Below are positions 39,366 through 43,944 of a stretch of DNA of 64,000 nucleotides, one piece after another. The notes beneath the pieces are model-generated. The model saw nothing but the letters and a program-made list of their open reading frames with translations, made no database searches and was not told where the DNA came from. Positions within the stretch are counted from its first letter, which is position 1. Every line of letters starts with the position of its first letter. This stretch comes from Nitrosopumilus sp. (lineage in GTDB: Archaea; Thermoproteota; Nitrososphaeria; Nitrososphaerales; Nitrosopumilaceae), in contig OZ241857.1 in NCBI GenBank assembly GCA_965203315.1, positions 1,504,001 to 1,568,000 on the forward strand, in the 5' to 3' direction. A program made the position numbers and the translations under genes.

Positions 39366-40188
39366 TATAATAGACATTATGCGTTAGTCGTTTTGACCGA
39401 AACACTTAGATCGTAGGTCTAAAAATAGCAATCATTGAGTCAAAAAACTAGTACGTCAGACGGACAAATACTGTGTCTCCAGCAAAGAGTAAAAGAGTTA
39501 GAGCAGACTGTTAGTGAACTAGAGCAACAACGAGATACTGTTGCAGAACAACTCGACCAAGAGGCGAACAATAAACCTAATTTTTACAGACAGAAAACAG
39601 AAAAGGTTGATGATTTTTGTAAGAGGATCCTCTCCAAACCAACTACTTTGTATAAATTCACAAAAATGACGCCCAATCTATTCGCGCTGTATGAAAAAGA
39701 ATACAAACAATACATCAAAGATGAATCAATTAGAGAGAGACGCAATGATCAACTCAACAAGAGACGTAAAGAGAAACTAGATGGTGAACCAAAGATACCA
39801 CAATACTCTGGCGTTAATGTTGGACGAGGAAAGGTGTCAGTATTAAGCACAACAGCTGTCATGTTGATGGAGTTTATGTCTACTCGAGCTGGAATGACTC
39901 AAGATGTGATTGGGTCCATATTTGATATGAGTCAAAGCAATGTCTCTAGACATACTAGACATGTACGTAGATTCCTGAATCAATCTTGGACAAGACCAAT
40001 AGATATAGCAGACCAGATCTCTAAATGTAAAACATTACAAGATCTACGAGAATGGATTCCTCGCTTAAAGACTGCAATTGATGGGACTCATTTCATAATC
40101 GATATACCATCAGATTCTCAGTTAGAAACGTGGTCAAGGTCTGGCAAACTAAAGAAACACACTTGTGTAATTCTATCCATGTGAACTG

Positions 40189-40196
40189 TTTATAAA
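40189..40196 (-). promoter_or_regulatory. TATA box in the IS1111 right end (outward/circle-junction promoter)
   Basis: TTTATAAA 13 bp from the element end, preceded by purine-rich AAAAG. Confidence 0.5.
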
Positions 40197-40199
40197 GCT

Positions 40200-40388
40200 T
40201 TTAGAGATTTTTCGATTTTGGTGCATAGTTTACACTAGGGTGGTATTCCTCACAATCACAGGATTTCGGACATATATCCATTCGAGCTCGAAGCTCAGTA
40301 TCATCTTCATCCTTTTATCAAAATCAGTCCACTTAGTGAGCCGAGGTTCTCCCTCATTGAATTACCGGACTTTAGATTTTGACTATAA
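40200..40388 (-). ncRNA. Predicted bridge/seek RNA
   Basis: Two stem/internal-loop/hairpin domains (40317-40383 and 40268-40312); loop segments match the target (GTAATTC, TCACTA) and donor (ATGGATA); RNA ends are uncertain. Confidence 0.72.
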
Positions 40389-41420
40389 TTACACAACAAA
40401 CTTTTTCTCCTCTCTGAGCATGCAATGTATCACTCGAAGTAACTTGGCAGCTGTAGCAACAGTAGCTTTGCTCTTTCCACGCTTTTCTGCGAGTTTAAAA
40501 TAAAATTTTGATACGTTTGTGTTTGGATAATATCGCACATGCGTGTGTACTGCTTCAGCTAGAATCCATCTCATTATACGACTGCCCTGTTTTGTTATCT
40601 TGCCATGTACTACTTTGTCTGCGGAATTACGTACCGATGGAACTAGTCCTGCATATGCACATAGTTTATGTGAATCATTAAATCTTGAAATCTCTCCAAT
40701 CTCTGCGGTAATTACCAGTGCGCTGTAATCACCTATGCCAGGAATTGACTTTAAGAGCTGTGCATCTTTTGATCTCTTTACCTTGTCTGCTATTCTAACA
40801 TCGCATTCATTGATCTCTATATTCAATGACTCTATCATTCTCAAATACGAGTTTATACGATAGTCATCAAGTTTACGTAATTCTGCGTTGTATCTCTTAC
40901 TAAACGTGGTACCTTGTATCTGTATTCCACTCTGCAACAATATGCCGTGTATTAGATTCTTGTATCTTGTTCTGTTTTTTATGTGTCCTTGTCTATGTCG
41001 CACTAGTCTCTTTGAATCAATAGTATCATGATCCGGTACATAACATTCTGCAATGTATCCTCCTCGTAGCAGTTCTGCTAGTATCTTTGAGTCTACCTTG
41101 TCTGTCTTTTTCTTTGATGCTGCTATCGCTTTTGTTTGGTACGGATTCGATAGTACTACATCAAATCCCAACTCGTCTGTCATATATCGATACAATCCAT
41201 ACCAGACTGAAGATGACTCCATTACATAACGGGTCTTGTCTGCAGGGAATTGCTTGAATGTCTCTGCAACACTATAGTGATTTGTCATTATGCGTTTGTC
41301 TAGTAAGATGTTGTCATCTTCATCGATTGCTGTCACATACAGAGAGTTCTTGTGAACATCTATTCCAACATAGATCGTTCTTGTTTTTACTTTTTTGGTG
41401 GGTAATGTGTTTGTTTGCAT
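40389..41420 (-). CDS. IS110-family DEDD recombinase/transposase
   Basis: VGIDVHK, VMESS, KTDKVDS, SIPGIG, YAGLVPSVRNSA (Ser), GKITKQG. Confidence 0.95.
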   Translation of the reverse strand: MQTNTLPTKKVKTRTIYVGIDVHKNSLYVTAIDEDDNILLDKRIMTNHYSVAETFKQFPADKTRYVMESSSVWYGLYRYMTDELGFDVVLSNPYQTKAIAASKKKTDKVDSKILAELLRGGYIAECYVPDHDTIDSKRLVRHRQGHIKNRTRYKNLIHGILLQSGIQIQGTTFSKRYNAELRKLDDYRINSYLRMIESLNIEINECDVRIADKVKRSKDAQLLKSIPGIGDYSALVITAEIGEISRFNDSHKLCAYAGLVPSVRNSADKVVHGKITKQGSRIMRWILAEAVHTHVRYYPNTNVSKFYFKLAEKRGKSKATVATAAKLLRVIHCMLREEKKFVV

Positions 41421-42541
41421 TTTTTGCCATCTTGGCTAGTTTTGCAGATGATCGCTTGGATCTAACATGCTTGGTATCATCTGATCGATTTCTTTTCGGC
41501 TTCACATATGGTTAGTGATGGTGAACAAAGAAAAACTGATCCTAACTATGAGCCCATTATACTATGGCAGTACGCACGAGATAACCATACTCAAAGAGTG
41601 GAAATTGGGATTTGGTAAATGGGAAGACAAGATGAGAGATCCATCAACTCCACGTAAAGAGAGAATAAAGATGCGTCAGGATTCTGCATACCAAGGTGGC
41701 GAGAGTGTATTTCCAGGAACAAACTTTATCGTACCATTCAAAAAACCTCGTGGCGGCGAGCTCACCAAAGAGCAGAAAGAGTTTAACCGAGATCACAGCT
41801 CAGAACGCGTGGTGGTTGAAAATTCCATAGGAATGATCAAGCAGTATCGTCACATGCAACAACAAATTGAATGTGTTGAACCTGATTTAGAAAAAAGAAT
41901 CGAAGAGGTAGCAGCACTTGTAAATGCAGGCATATTATGGGACAAAAGACGCGATCGACCGACCAAGAGATTTGACAAGCTATTGCGTGCATATCATCGG
42001 CGTGCCAACAAATTGAGAAAGAGATACGGCTAAAACATCATAAATGCAATACCGGATACCATTATCTGTTTATGATTTACTGTATTCCTGTACATTCGTG
42101 TACAATAACGCAACATTTTGACTGTATTTGCAAAGTTGAATGAGATATTCTAATTTTAGACACTTGTGTAATGACGTTGACGCAATAACTTACGAATTTC
42201 AACCAGCTTTGGTATCGTTGAAAACGACTAACGCATAATGTCTAGAATAGTTAGGCAACATCTCAATGCGTTAAGACGAGCTGGTAAATTACCAAAAGTA
42301 GTAGACATTGCAATAGACATGCACTGCTATCAGAGATACGACAAAGAACAAACCAAATACACTGTAAAGACCATGTTCAAGAAGAGTGTAAAACTATGCG
42401 AAGAGTACATGACTGCACAGATTGTAAACGTTGGAGCAACGTTAACCGTAGCTAAATTACAAGTGAAAAAAGGTGCTGGAAACCCAGATCTTATACGTAA
42501 AATCATCAAAACCTGCCACCAGCAGAGACTAATCCTAGGCG

Positions 42542-42689
42542 CAGTACTTCCAAATGTCTCTTTAAATAACGAAAATTATATAGAAATAGAAAGATCTATA
42601 AAGGGTTTCTAAAAATAACTTTTGTTGAAAAACAAAAATGAATTAAATGGACAGCGATTTAGAAGACATTTAGAATATTCTCGATATAC
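42542..42689 (+). repeat. 148-bp duplicate of the left end of element B
   Basis: Matches 42690-42837. Confidence 0.92.
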
Positions 42690-43944
42690 CAGTACTTCCA
42701 AATGTCTCTTTAAATAACGAAAATTATATAGAAATAGAAAGATCTATAAAGGGTTTCTAAAAATAACTTTTGTTGAAAAACAAAAATGAATTAAATGGAC
42801 AGCGATTTAGAAGACATTTAGAATATTCTCGATATACTGCATTTTTAAATGATTTAGATATTCCTGTGTCTAAAAAAAATAATGCAAAGTTTGGTAAAGA
42901 AGATGTTTTATCCATTATGTTTAAAACAGCCATGTCTAAAAGTACAATAACTGGACATTCAACTTCAATGAAAATGAGGAAAAAGCGTGCTCCATCTCCA
43001 GAATATTTTAGACTATTATTCAAAAAGGCAGCAGCTGATTTTGACAACTTTAAATTTAAAAGGTCAGTAAAAAGCAACATCGCAGCATTACAAGATATGG
43101 GTCGTTGGTCTAAAGAGCCAAAAGATATAGCAATTGATCTGCACAAATATGCACGATATGATGACAAAACAGATACTAAACTATGCTATGGTCCGGTTGA
43201 CGACAGATATGCATTACATGAAAAGTACATGACAGCACAAGTCATAAACGAAGGCGAAACACTAGTTGTGTCAAAACATGCCATGTACAAAGGAGACCAA
43301 AACCCCAATTTTGTGCGTAAAATCATCAAAGATTGTGAAGATCTGCGTCTGGACATTGGTAACTGGTTGATGGATCGTGAGTTTCTTACTACACAGATCT
43401 TGCAGCTGCTGCAAGGTCGAGGTTACACATTTCTCACCATCTGTCAAAATAACGCCAAGACAAGGCGATATCTAGAAGAGTACAAACAAGGAAAACGTAA
43501 ACGAGTATCAAAACGTACGATCTCTAATGGCAAAGGCTTGTCAATGGACTATTACATGATCATAGAAGAAATTGAAAAGGATGGTAAAATAGACTACATT
43601 CCATTCGCAACAAACAATCCAAGAATTGATACAAAAAAATACGCAAAGCGATGGGTTATTGAAACTGGATATAGGGTAGTCGATAAGATGAGATTACCAA
43701 CTACAACTAAAAATGAATCAGTAAGAGATTTGTTGTTTTCTTTTTCTCTTTTGTTTTATAATGCTTGGATCATAGCACGTAACATAGATGATGAAAATGA
43801 TCCATTGAATGTTGGTTGGTGGCACATTCCTCAACTTACGTTCAGAGATCTTGTGCTAGATTACATTGAACTCTATCGAGAAAAATGGCCTCCACCAAAG
43901 ATTGCCGCTGCAGCTTGTTAATAAGCAGACAGTTGGAAGTACTG
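42690..43944 (+). mobile_element. ISH3/IS4-like element B, copy 2
   Basis: Same TIRs as copy 1; 5-bp TSD AGGCG flanks the composite 42542-43944. Confidence 0.93.
42770..43921 (+). CDS. ISH3/IS4-like DDE transposase
   Basis: Protein identical to 16874-18025. Confidence 0.92.
   Translation: MLKNKNELNGQRFRRHLEYSRYTAFLNDLDIPVSKKNNAKFGKEDVLSIMFKTAMSKSTITGHSTSMKMRKKRAPSPEYFRLLFKKAAADFDNFKFKRSVKSNIAALQDMGRWSKEPKDIAIDLHKYARYDDKTDTKLCYGPVDDRYALHEKYMTAQVINEGETLVVSKHAMYKGDQNPNFVRKIIKDCEDLRLDIGNWLMDREFLTTQILQLLQGRGYTFLTICQNNAKTRRYLEEYKQGKRKRVSKRTISNGKGLSMDYYMIIEEIEKDGKIDYIPFATNNPRIDTKKYAKRWVIETGYRVVDKMRLPTTTKNESVRDLLFSFSLLFYNAWIIARNIDDENDPLNVGWWHIPQLTFRDLVLDYIELYREKWPPPKIAAAAC

What the first reader, a model, noticed from the sequence alone, without database searches (positions are those of the whole stretch)
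40176..41514. Archaeal IS1111-type recombinase with a readable bridge/seek RNA matching its own target
Seen (element orientation, after the stop codon): GUCAAAAUC-uaa-AGUCC [gGUAAUUCaau] GAG-g-GAG-aac-CUC-gg-CUC [ACUAagu] GGACU-GAUUUUGAU, then GGAU [gaagaugauacu] GAGC-uucga-GCUC [gaAUGGAUAuau] GUCC. The reconstructed target is catcac-TA-gaattac: GUAAUUC is the reverse complement of its right arm and UCACUA equals its left arm plus core. The circle junction is catgga-TA-accat, and AUGGAUA matches its left arm plus core; the match to the other donor arm is weak. Known: IS110/IS1111 recombinases use an element-encoded RNA with target- and donor-binding loops, and IS1111 members carry it 3' of the gene and have sub-terminal IRs. 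Inference: an intact, compact (343 aa), reprogrammable system with a TA core from a marine-type archaeon.
Basis: partly seen in the sequence, partly recalled or inferred. Interest (0 to 1): 0.85.

Follow-up and report, generated by a model that had tools for sequence, protein, structure and literature searches.

The report
Archaeal RNA-guided insertion sequence, IS1111 type
This is a 1.3-kb jumping gene in an ammonia-oxidising archaeon that carries, behind its recombinase gene, a small folded RNA whose loops spell out both its own ends and the exact DNA site it sits in, a known kind of RNA-guided element, seen here in a little-studied archaeal lineage with sister copies that have naturally re-aimed guides.

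Summary
Window 40176-41514 (minus strand, 1339 bp) is an IS110-family element of IS1111 type. It has a 343-aa DEDD/Ser recombinase ORF, then two stem-loops with internal loops, 7-bp sub-terminal inverted repeats with 7-nt and 3-nt terminal extensions, and a TA core. It splits another IS's transposase gene; three uninterrupted copies of that gene carry the exact target and a fourth carries it with one mismatch.

The same genome holds 12 full-length relatives in 5 guide classes. Each class's loop sequences match its own flanks and not the others'. Across 24 elements from about 20 genomes, no permutation out of 20000 reached the observed guide-flank match for the right target, the left target or the right donor. 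The fold is kept, with compensatory changes in 17 of 25 pairs. The weak fourth guide is real: about 5 nt that covary with the left end.

RNA expression, circle formation and activity are untested. This copy also differs from its family: a 1-nt insertion cuts off an N-terminal extension that is otherwise open from a GTG in the left repeat.

Verdict: a new member of a known kind (bridge/seek RNA). Two side features may be new. One is a TATA-like box placed to start a leaderless mRNA across the circle junction. The other is a left-end copy of the donor-guide strand.

The parts
40176..41514 (-). Whole element, 1339 bp, counting the left TA as part of it (IS1111 convention: 7-nt left extension TAACCAT, 3-nt right extension GGA)
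   Evidence: The flanks abut with a 2-nt overlap at 4 other loci. A contig joint skips 1339 nt with 2 letters shared by both sides. The ends are conserved among 12 copies.
41513..41514 (-). Core dinucleotide TA, left copy (the right copy lies at 40174-40175 in the flank)
   Evidence: The same TA sits at a fixed place in the 3' strands of both RNA loops.
41501..41507 (-). Left sub-terminal inverted repeat ATGTGAA. It contains the GTG (41503-41505) that is the first start codon of the family's extended reading frame.
40179..40185 (-). Right sub-terminal inverted repeat TTCACAT, followed by the 3-nt extension GGA (40176-40178)
40389..41420 (-). Recombinase ORF, 343 aa. DEDD residues D21, E68, D107, D110 and Ser266 in GLVPSVRNSA.
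41320..41505 (-). 61-aa ORF starting at the GTG in the left repeat. It is the remnant of the family's N-terminal extension frame, detached from the recombinase frame in this copy by a 1-nt insertion near 41375.
41473..41485 (-). Left-end sub-terminal motif AUCAGAUGAUACC, a same-sense copy of the 5' strand of the donor loop
40317..40383 (-). Stem-loop 1, the target-binding loop. The 5' strand GUAAUUC (40359-40365) pairs with the top strand right of the core. The 3' strand UCAC+UA (40334-40339) equals the top strand left of the core plus the core.
40268..40312 (-). Stem-loop 2, the donor-binding loop. The 3' strand AUGGA+UA (40275-40281) equals the right end plus the core. Within the 5' strand GAAGAUGAUACU (40297-40308), AUGAU (40300-40304) is complementary to left-end positions +1..+5 at 4 of 5 places.
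40220..40240 (-). Third small hairpin, UAGU-GUAA-ACUA. In relatives it reads UAGC-GNNN-GCUA or CAGU-GUGA-ACUG.
   Evidence: The hairpin search found a 4-6-bp, G-first-loop hairpin in 17 of 24 elements. By my reading, about a dozen of those sit at the equivalent position.
40189..40196 (-). TATA-like box TTTATAAA, 13 nt from the right end and pointing out of the element
   Evidence: The box lies 13 nt from the end in 17 of 23 distinct elements and 11-14 nt in the other six.
39435..40184 (+). 5' part of the interrupted host gene (another IS's transposase, HTH_Tnp_4). Its last 9 nt run into the element.
41515..42033 (+). 3' part of the interrupted host gene (DDE_Tnp_4)

Best explanation
The region is an IS1111-type member of the IS110 family in an ammonia-oxidising archaeon. 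Its recombinase is guided by an RNA of about 116-165 nt encoded just after the stop codon.

Stem-loop 1 reads the target. The 5' strand of its internal loop pairs with about 7 nt of the top strand right of the TA core. The 3' strand pairs with the bottom strand of 4-5 nt left of the core plus the core itself.

Stem-loop 2 reads the joined ends of the excised circle in the same way. Its 3' strand covers the right end plus the core. The last ~5 nt of the guide part of its 5' strand cover the left end.

Recombination at TA then inserts the element without any other duplication. This copy was aimed at, and sits in, the transposase gene of another IS.

Shown here: the anatomy, the guide-flank and guide-end matches and their covariation, the conserved fold, and the catalytic residues. 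Inferred: that the RNA is made, that it binds the protein, that a circle forms, and that this copy is still active.
For: (1) Protein. PF01548 at 6e-25 and PF02371 at 3e-23. NF033542 'IS110 family RNA-guided transposase' scores 242.9 bits against a cut-off of 140. The alignment to IS621 (8wt6) places D21, E68, D107/D110 and S266 on its GID, E, TDxVD and S(G) positions.

(2) Precise insertion at TA.

(3) Same genome. There are 12 full-length relatives at 67-75% DNA identity in 5 guide classes. In the 12-site x 5-guide table, a site's own guide gives runs of 5-8 nt on the right side against 2-5 for foreign guides. On the left it gives 3-7 against 2-3. One row (L013) was mis-registered by my script.

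(4) 24 elements from about 20 genomes. The mean right-target run is 6.25 for own guides against 3.04 in 552 cross pairs. The left-target figure is 5.42 against 2.20. No shuffle of guide-to-site assignment out of 20000 reaches the observed sum for the right target, the left target or the right donor.

(5) Core covariation. L042 has AA in both loops and at both junctions. The remnant L014 has CA in both loops.

(6) Left-end variants ACCAT, ACTAT, ATCAT, GTCAT, ATTAC and TTTGT are each met by the matching donor-loop letters at 4-5 of 5 places in 22 of 24 elements.

(7) Fold. RNAalifold on 17 sequences gives both stem-loops. On 32 distinct rows, 93.4% of cells pair, 17 of 25 pairs show changes on both sides, and slid controls pair at 34-48%. 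Frequent G-U pairs fix the strand as the sense strand.

(8) A covariance model built from these sequences finds all 12 own copies and matches in 24 of 151 genomes of the class.
Against: No RNA data exist: no listed run that holds the sequence is on record as RNA. Transcription, processing and ends of the RNA are therefore unknown.

The fold of this one sequence is not more stable than shuffles (z = -1.34).

The alignment used for the pair counts was fitted to the model, and related sequences inflate the shuffle tests.

Several sites fit their guides poorly. The left match is only 2-3 nt (the core alone, or the core plus one base) in L035, L032, L043, L044 and L050. The right match is only 3-4 nt in L047, L038, L048, L041 and L033. 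The own guide is at least as good as every foreign guide at only 16 of 24 right sides and 21 of 24 left sides.

L009 has its right match displaced by 2 nt, and L031 reads TG where TA is expected at the right junction.

This copy's own right-donor match has a mismatch (4 of 5).

The truncated twin L003 (97% identical) sits beside a left flank that does not fit this copy's left guide, and its own RNA region is missing.

This copy lacks the family's N-terminal extension.
Confidence: 0.88

Rival explanations
1. The element type is as described, but this particular copy is a non-autonomous or dead relic. A 1-nt insertion has separated the catalytic core from the family's normal start, the GTG in the left repeat. 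It can move only with help from sister recombinases, if at all.
For: In 19 of 23 distinct elements the recombinase frame has no stop from left-end position +1 to the catalytic core. The other two frames achieve this in 1 and 2 of 23. The first start is a GTG at +8 in 25 of 29 elements. This copy is an exception: it has 2 stops in the recombinase frame, and the old frame survives as a 61-aa ORF. There is only one full copy of this guide class, against 6 and 3 for classes A and B.
Against: The 343-aa ORF has an ATG and all catalytic residues. IS621 itself has only about 8 residues before the first Asp (alignment). The 97%-identical truncated copy L003 carries the same insertion at a different site, so the variant spread after the change. 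The guide-target fit of this copy is among the best: 7 nt on the right side plus 6 on the left counting the core.
Confidence: 0.3
2. The 5' strand of the donor loop does not read the left terminus. It reads (or also reads) the sub-terminal left-end motif YAGA+N6 about 30-40 nt inside the element, on the bottom strand. This could be a second donor contact or self-repression by the RNA-protein complex.
For: The last 6 nt of that loop strand equal the 6 nt after a YAGR in the element's own left end exactly in 14 of 24 elements, and within 1 mismatch in 18 of 24. Cross pairs match exactly in 7 of 522. Eight different hexamers are each matched. Departures from perfect complementarity to the terminus are shared by the loop and the motif: TGAT in this lineage, TAGC in L031/L032, TGGC in L038.
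Against: Five nucleotides of the same loop strand are complementary to left-end positions +1..+5, in the same register as the target loop, and covary with them. This includes L042, which has no such motif. Both sequences being complementary to the terminus explains much of their likeness. The motif also lies in the open N-terminal extension frame, where it codes S/L-D-G/D/S. Two guides pairing with one DNA strand 35 nt apart has no precedent in the papers I read.
Confidence: 0.2
3. The 3' non-coding region is not an RNA guide. It is a terminator or a protein-binding DNA region, and the loop-flank matches are chance.
For: The single-sequence fold energy is unremarkable. There is no Rfam match. 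No RNA run is available.
Against: No shuffle out of 20000 reaches the observed match for three separate guide-DNA relations. Five guide classes in one genome each fit their own sites. Compensatory changes occur in 17 of 25 pairs and G-U pairs are strand-specific. The protein belongs to a family shown experimentally to use such RNAs (PMC11187229 and PMC11208160, sections read).
Confidence: 0.02

Closest known systems
IS1111-group elements with a seekRNA (ISEc11, ISPa11, ISKpn4, ISPst6; Siddiquee et al. 2024, PMC11187229)
   Same: The recombinase is a DEDD/Ser enzyme of about 340 aa. The non-coding RNA region lies 3' of the gene. The ends have sub-terminal inverted repeats with 7-nt left and 3-nt right extensions. 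The top-strand match lies 5' of the bottom-strand match in the RNA. There is no duplication beyond the shared core. Close relatives show natural re-aiming, as ISEc11 and ISXne4 do. The elements prefer repeated targets: class B here inserts 8 bp inside the shared terminus of other repeat elements, much as IS4321/IS5075 target transposon terminal repeats (title of the Partridge and Hall paper, seen in the reference list).
   Different: The host is an archaeon. The inverted repeat is only 7 bp, against the 'usually 11-13' in that paper. The motif reads GLVPSVRNSA (S-A) where the paper gives S/T-G, occasionally T-A. A clear second loop matches the donor ends; in ISEc11 the short 82-nt RNA with the target loop sufficed. 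My covariance model does not detect an RNA in a Klebsiella plasmid IS110-family element that sits directly after a Tn3-family transposase gene. That this element is of the IS4321/IS5075 type is my guess from its position.
IS621 / ISCro4 bridge recombinases and bridge RNA (Durrant et al. 2024, PMC11208160; Hiraizumi et al. 2026, PMC13626964)
   Same: The RNA has the same two-internal-loop logic: a target-binding loop and a donor-binding loop. Each has two guide strands and a shared core dinucleotide present in both loops. The catalytic residues align.
   Different: The RNA is at the right end rather than the left. The core is TA rather than CT. The order of strand matches is reversed. The proteins align only locally (42 bits). 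Durrant et al. noted that many IS1111 RNAs hold donor-binding letters in a multi-loop; here it is a simple internal loop, as in IS621.
Haloarchaeal IS110-family elements (ISHvo9 family and relatives)
   Same: They are the best named protein matches, at 34-38% identity over 94-99% of the length, and they are archaeal.
   Different: The RNA model gives only a non-significant hit (E = 0.11), and it lies upstream of the ISHvo9 gene. Siddiquee et al. list ISHvo10 as diverged, with long non-coding regions on both sides, and report no target consensus for Hvo9.

Membership tests
IS110 family (RNA-guided DEDD recombinases) | N-terminal DEDD RuvC-like domain plus C-terminal Tnp domain | tested here: met
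   PF01548 at 88.2 bits and PF02371 at 82.5 bits. NF033542 at 242.9 bits against a cut-off of 140.
IS110 family (RNA-guided DEDD recombinases) | Catalytic Asp/Glu/Asp/Asp and the Tnp-domain serine are present | tested here: met
   The alignment to IS621 (8wt6) puts GIDVHK, MESS, KTDKVD and RNSA on IS621's GIDTAK, IEAT, KTDTVD and ESGS. The positions are D21, E68, D107, D110 and S266. Which IS621 residues are catalytic is recalled, not taken from a call.
IS110 family (RNA-guided DEDD recombinases) | Site-specific insertion with a shared core dinucleotide and no further duplication | tested here: met
   Empty sites show a 2-nt overlap. A contig joint skips 1339 nt with 2 shared letters.
IS110 family (RNA-guided DEDD recombinases) | Element-encoded structured RNA with loops complementary to target and donor | tested here: met
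   Guide-flank and guide-end matches with covariation. Conserved fold. Existence of the RNA molecule itself was not tested.
IS110 family (RNA-guided DEDD recombinases) | Circular intermediate with abutted ends; RNA co-purifies with the recombinase | not testable with these tools
   Only Logan contigs of DNA runs were available.
IS1111 group | Long non-coding region / guide RNA downstream of the recombinase gene | tested here: met
   213 nt lie between the stop codon (40389-40391) and the right end (40176), against 92 nt before the ATG. The RNA model hits lie 3' of the gene in the loci.
IS1111 group | Sub-terminal inverted repeats with asymmetric terminal extensions (7 nt left, 3 nt right) | tested here: met
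   TAACCAT|ATGTGAA ... TTCACAT|GGA. The repeat is 7 bp. That is shorter than the 'usually 11-13' of PMC11187229 but within the 7-17 bp given in PMC11208160.
IS1111 group | Recombinase of 330-350 aa with a GL-P----S(t)G motif | tested here: inconclusive
   This ORF is 343 aa with GLVPSVRNSA: the serine is kept but Ala replaces Gly. The family's usual frame is longer, with 368-380 aa open in most relatives.
IS1111 group | In the RNA, the match to the top strand lies 5' of the match to the bottom strand | tested here: met
   The 5' loop strand is complementary to the top strand right of the core. The 3' loop strand equals the top strand left of the core.
IS1111 group | Recombinase falls inside the IS1111 clade in a tree with reference IS | not tested
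   No ISfinder reference set was at hand. Full-length matches of 24-27% to enterobacterial plasmid IS110-family genes, against only local matches to IS621, are suggestive but not decisive.

The most novel reading that the evidence does not exclude
These archaeal elements may have rebuilt the 'junction promoter' trick with archaeal parts and added a self-check.

A TATA-like box sits 13 nt from the right end. Only in the excised circle does it lie 22 nt upstream of a GTG inside the left inverted repeat. Transcription would then start on that codon and give a leaderless mRNA for an N-terminally extended recombinase, with the guide RNA in its 3' tail.

A left-end copy of the donor-guide strand (YAGA+N6, about 20-30 nt into that mRNA) could be a guide-matched site. 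Through it the RNA-protein complex might contact the donor a second time or shut off its own expression.
Probability: 0.25. Interest if true: 0.65.

Novelty: new member of a known kind. Interest (0 to 1): 0.5.

Why it matters
RNA-guided IS110/IS1111 recombinases are being developed as programmable DNA-insertion tools. Almost all the work is on bacterial elements.

This genome is a ready-made natural experiment. Five guide classes of one archaeal element family live side by side, each with known occupied sites. Two classes also have many free target sites: 3 exact ones for this copy and 45 for class B. That gives direct rules for guide length, register and mismatch tolerance in a compact TA-core system with a simple two-loop RNA.

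It also shows these elements parasitising other insertion sequences, both in a transposase gene and in a shared terminal repeat.

If the junction-TATA/leaderless-GTG reading and the left-end guide copy hold, they would show how an RNA-guided transposon controls its expression in archaea.

Tried and rejected
Rfam: no family matched. The only hit was a chance lncRNA match at E = 7.

RNA evidence: no RNA holder is listed. laid four contig runs. The guessed-RNA run X6 laid nothing. The one joint, which skips 1339 nt, comes from uninterrupted copies of the host IS, so I do not read it as excision.

Single-sequence thermodynamics is not informative.

I asked whether the likeness of the left-end motif to the donor-loop strand is just shared complementarity to the left terminus. 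The motif's complement fits the terminus at only 5-8 of 11 places, less well than it fits the loop strand. That explanation is therefore incomplete, though not excluded.

A left-end hairpin, CAGAUGAU...AUCAUCUG, is visible in the copies of this genome. I did not see it in the one relative from another genome that I read for it (L030). No systematic scan was made, so I dropped it as a general feature.

I looked for 'handshake'-type matches of the 3 nt after the core in the target loop. Only L042 (TTT) fitted, and elements whose left end starts with G did not. I dropped this too.

The RNA model was run on ISHvo9, a Halorubrum element and a Klebsiella plasmid element and found nothing significant.

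C1:936501-936629 (L074) is a decayed orphan copy of the RNA region without a recombinase gene. L014, L016, L017 and L018 are remnants cut by other elements.

The automatic left-end search picked wrong places in some elements. I re-found L033, L004, L038, L039, L043, L040 and L054 with a generic end pattern. I dropped the left sides of L013, L046, L047 and L058 and the right sides of L040, L054 and L058 before the counts.

The first regex for the left-end motif took the wrong YAGR in four elements. One search repeats the count with the best YAGR for own and cross pairs alike.

Literature: searches for seekRNA + IS1111, bridge RNA + IS110 + archaea, IS110 + Nitrosopumil and IS1111 + archaea + leaderless found no description of these elements' RNAs or of a junction TATA/leaderless start. 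Supplementary tables of PMC11208160, PMC11187229 and the bioRxiv paper on archaeal IS110 recombinases were not seen and may list such elements.

The tally of 52 of 301 genomes includes one genome flagged unpublished (G283). No other claim rests on it.
Full report
WHAT IS THERE

On the minus strand, window 40176-41514 is a 1339-bp insertion.
- It begins TA|ACCATATGTGAAG and ends TTCACATGGA|TA.
- It holds one long ORF (40389-41420, 343 aa).
- 213 nt of non-coding sequence lie between the stop codon and the right end.
- It splits a gene on the plus strand. The two pieces (39435-40184 and 41515-42033) carry HTH_Tnp_4 and DDE_Tnp_4, so the host gene is the transposase of another insertion sequence.
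- Removing the element and one TA restores a single frame (..KKHTCVIL-VMVNKEK..), read directly.

The same genome holds four uninterrupted copies of that host gene, in which the two flanks abut with a 2-nt overlap. Three carry the exact 13-mer TCACTAGAATTAC. The fourth reads TTAC for TCAC. In a second organism's assembly, a contig joins 40173 to 41513, skipping 1339 nt with two letters fitting either side. I read that contig as one of the uninterrupted copies, not as excision.

THE PROTEIN

The ORF matches PF01548 and PF02371 and NCBIfam NF033542 'IS110 family RNA-guided transposase' at 242.9 bits against a cut-off of 140.

Against solved structures, it aligns locally with the IS621 and ISCro4 recombinases. 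The alignment places D21, E68, D107/D110 and S266 on their conserved positions.

The best named relatives are haloarchaeal IS110-family genes, including the ISHvo9 family, at 34-38% identity over nearly full length. Enterobacterial plasmid relatives align over full length at 24-27%.

The genome encodes archaeal AmoA at 387 bits, so the host is an ammonia-oxidising archaeon.

- The minimum-energy and centroid folds recover stem-loop 1 (40317-40383).
- The centroid fold recovers stem-loop 2 (40268-40312).
- The energy is ordinary for the composition (z = -1.34), so the case must rest on comparison.
- Rfam has no matching family.

A NATURAL EXPERIMENT IN THE SAME GENOME

A DNA search of the genome found 12 full-length relatives at 67-75% identity, plus remnants. 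Aligned, they share the ends and the helices. They differ exactly in the two strands of the internal loop of stem-loop 1, and fall into five classes:
- this copy;
- L002;
- L005;
- class A, with six copies;
- class B, with three copies.

Each class's 5' loop strand is complementary to the sequence right of its own TA. Each class's 3' loop strand equals the 4-5 nt left of its own TA plus the TA. In the 12 x 5 table, own guides give right-side runs of 5-8 nt against 2-5 for foreign guides, and left-side runs of 3-7 against 2-3. One row (L013, whose left end is deleted) was mis-registered by my script.

Not everything is clean. L009 has its right match shifted by 2 nt and a weak left match. L002's right match has an internal mismatch.

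Class B's target..CCCCCCGTTAAGT-TA-AAAGAACC, is the shared last ~22 bp of at least five different repeat families. It occurs 45 more times unoccupied.

BEYOND THIS GENOME

A protein search of 301 genomes of the class found matches at E <= 1e-30 in 52 (one of these, G283, is flagged unpublished).

I built a covariance model from 17 RNA regions.
- It finds all 12 copies, two known remnants and one further orphan in the own genome.
- It finds 38 regions in the loci fetched.
- It finds matches in 24 of 151 genomes of the class.

Using the model alignment to cut out the four loop strands, I located the ends independently of the target guides. The right end was found from the donor-loop 3' strand, and the left end from the inverted repeat. 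The 7-letter donor-loop string was found exactly in 29 of 34 rows. Two of those (L040, L058) lay at places I did not trust.

For 24 elements:
- The mean right-target run is 6.25 nt for own guides against 3.04 in 552 cross pairs.
- The mean left-target run is 5.42 against 2.20.
- No shuffle out of 20000 reaches the observed sums.
- The own guide is at least as good as every foreign guide at 16 of 24 right sides and 21 of 24 left sides.
- Weak cases are listed in the Against line.

Relatedness inflates such tests. The guides themselves, however, differ between even close relatives.

THE FOURTH GUIDE

In this copy it is AUGAU against ACCAT, 4 of 5. In the same register as the target loop, the last letters of the guide part of the donor loop's 5' strand are complementary to left-end positions +1..+5 at 4-5 of 5 places in 22 of 24 elements. 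They change together with the left end: ACCAT, ACTAT, ATCAT, GTCAT, ATTAC, TTTGT (permutation 0 of 20000).

The core covaries too. L042 has AA in both loops and at both junctions. The remnant L014 has CA in both loops.

THE FOLD

RNAalifold on the MAFFT alignment gives both stem-loops, with 13 of 25 pairs showing double changes.

On the model-fitted alignment (32 distinct rows):
- 93.4% of cells pair.
- 17 of 25 pairs have changes on both sides.
- Sliding the partners by 1-3 columns drops pairing to 34-48%.
- Many G-U pairs (for example 27 and 29 rows at two positions) show the folded strand is the sense strand.

Comparison corrects one detail. The inner helix of stem-loop 1 is GAGG/CCUC, leaving a 12-nt 3' loop N3-LTG-TA-N3.

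A third small hairpin with a G-first tetraloop follows stem-loop 2 (40220-40240). It shows compensatory changes among relatives.

FAMILY PLACEMENT

From the sections of Siddiquee et al. that I read (PMC11187229), IS1111-group elements have these features:
- the RNA lies 3' of the gene;
- sub-terminal inverted repeats with 7-nt and 3-nt extensions;
- recombinases of 330-350 aa with a GL-P----S(t)G motif;
- the top-strand match lies 5' of the bottom-strand match.

All are met here, with two shortfalls. The repeat is only 7 bp, which is within the 7-17 bp quoted by Durrant et al. (PMC11208160, section 12). The motif reads S-A.

Durrant et al. predicted right-end bridge RNAs in 93% of ISfinder IS1111 elements. 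Another preprint (10.1101/2024.06.21.599552, passages read) counted 662 archaeal IS110 recombinases. The kind is therefore known, and archaeal members are known to exist.

I found no description of these Nitrosopumilus-type elements or their RNAs. I could not see the supplementary tables.

WHAT IS DIFFERENT OR UNEXPLAINED

(a) The reading frame.
- In 19 of 23 distinct elements the recombinase frame has no stop from the first base of the left end to the catalytic core. The other two frames manage this in 1 and 2 of 23.
- The frame is closed upstream by TAA, formed by the core TA plus the first A of the left end.
- The first start is a GTG at +8, inside the left repeat, in 25 of 29 elements.
- The encoded extensions are 17-66 aa, basic and poorly conserved.
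- This copy is an exception. A 1-nt insertion just before the core puts the old frame out of register; it survives as the 61-aa ORF 41320-41505. An ATG at +93 opens the 343-aa ORF.
- The truncated twin L003 shares the insertion.

(b) The TATA-like box. A box (TTTAWAAA and near variants) lies 13 nt from the right end in 17 of 23 elements, and 11-14 nt in the other six. After circle formation its last base would be 22 nt from that GTG. From general knowledge (recalled) that archaeal TATA boxes centre near -26, this would start transcription at or next to the GTG and give a leaderless mRNA. This is inference only.

(c) The left-end motif. About 30-40 nt inside the left end lies YAGA+N6. Its N6 equals the last six letters of the donor loop's 5' strand exactly in 14 of 24 elements, and within one mismatch in 18 of 24. 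Cross pairs match exactly in 7 of 522. Eight different hexamers are involved. Shared complementarity to the terminus explains part of this but not the shared departures. I have no settled explanation.

VERDICT

This is a new archaeal member of the known bridge/seek-RNA elements. It is documented here by unusually clear natural re-aiming. Its expression and activity are untested, and two side features are worth a bench test.

Noticed in passing
G000:C1, 45 sites (e.g. 124363, 200153, 227389); occupied copies L010-L012: The motif CCCCC(G/A)NTAAGTTAAAAGAACC is the common last ~22 bp of at least five different repeat families in this genome. Conservation stops right after GAACC. It looks like a shared terminal repeat of other mobile elements, and it is the target of guide class B.
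   Followed up: partly
window 41473-41485 and the matching place in 23 related elements: A left-end motif YAGA+N6 copies the 5' strand of the donor loop and covaries with it. It is exact in 14 of 24 elements, against 7 of 522 cross pairs.
   Followed up: partly
window 41503-41505 (GTG) and 40189-40196 (TATA-like box): In most relatives the recombinase frame is open from the left terminus, with a GTG at +8. A conserved TATA-like box lies 13 nt from the right end, so it would sit 22 nt upstream of that GTG in a circle.
   Followed up: partly
L003 (G000:C1:846044-846486), L014, L019: Several copies are truncated by another element whose end reads GGATCTTTTCG(A/G)TTTACGTGGGAT. A loose end in run X4 shows the same junction.
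   Followed up: no
L002 left flank (G000:C1, just beyond 1709258): The ~52 bp next to the left end of L002 are present twice in tandem (AAAACTCCGTATAAATGTAATAGTCCAAATCACACACGTGGCACAAAAATAT).
   Followed up: no
L044 (G036) right end; L039 (G110) flanks: L044 has its last ~50 bp, including the right end, duplicated in tandem. L039 is flanked on both sides by the same ~30 bp.
   Followed up: no
G000:C1:936501-936629 (L074): A decayed orphan copy of the class-A-like RNA region, with no recombinase gene beside it.
   Followed up: yes
window 42238-43921: Two more transposase-like ORFs lie just beyond the host IS: a 124-aa fragment and a 383-aa DDE_Tnp_1 protein sharing a motif. The neighbourhood is a pile-up of insertion sequences.
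   Followed up: no
L075 520-673 (Haloferax volcanii pHV4, ISHvo9): The only hint of the RNA model in ISHvo9, non-significant at E = 0.11, lies upstream of the gene rather than downstream.
   Followed up: no
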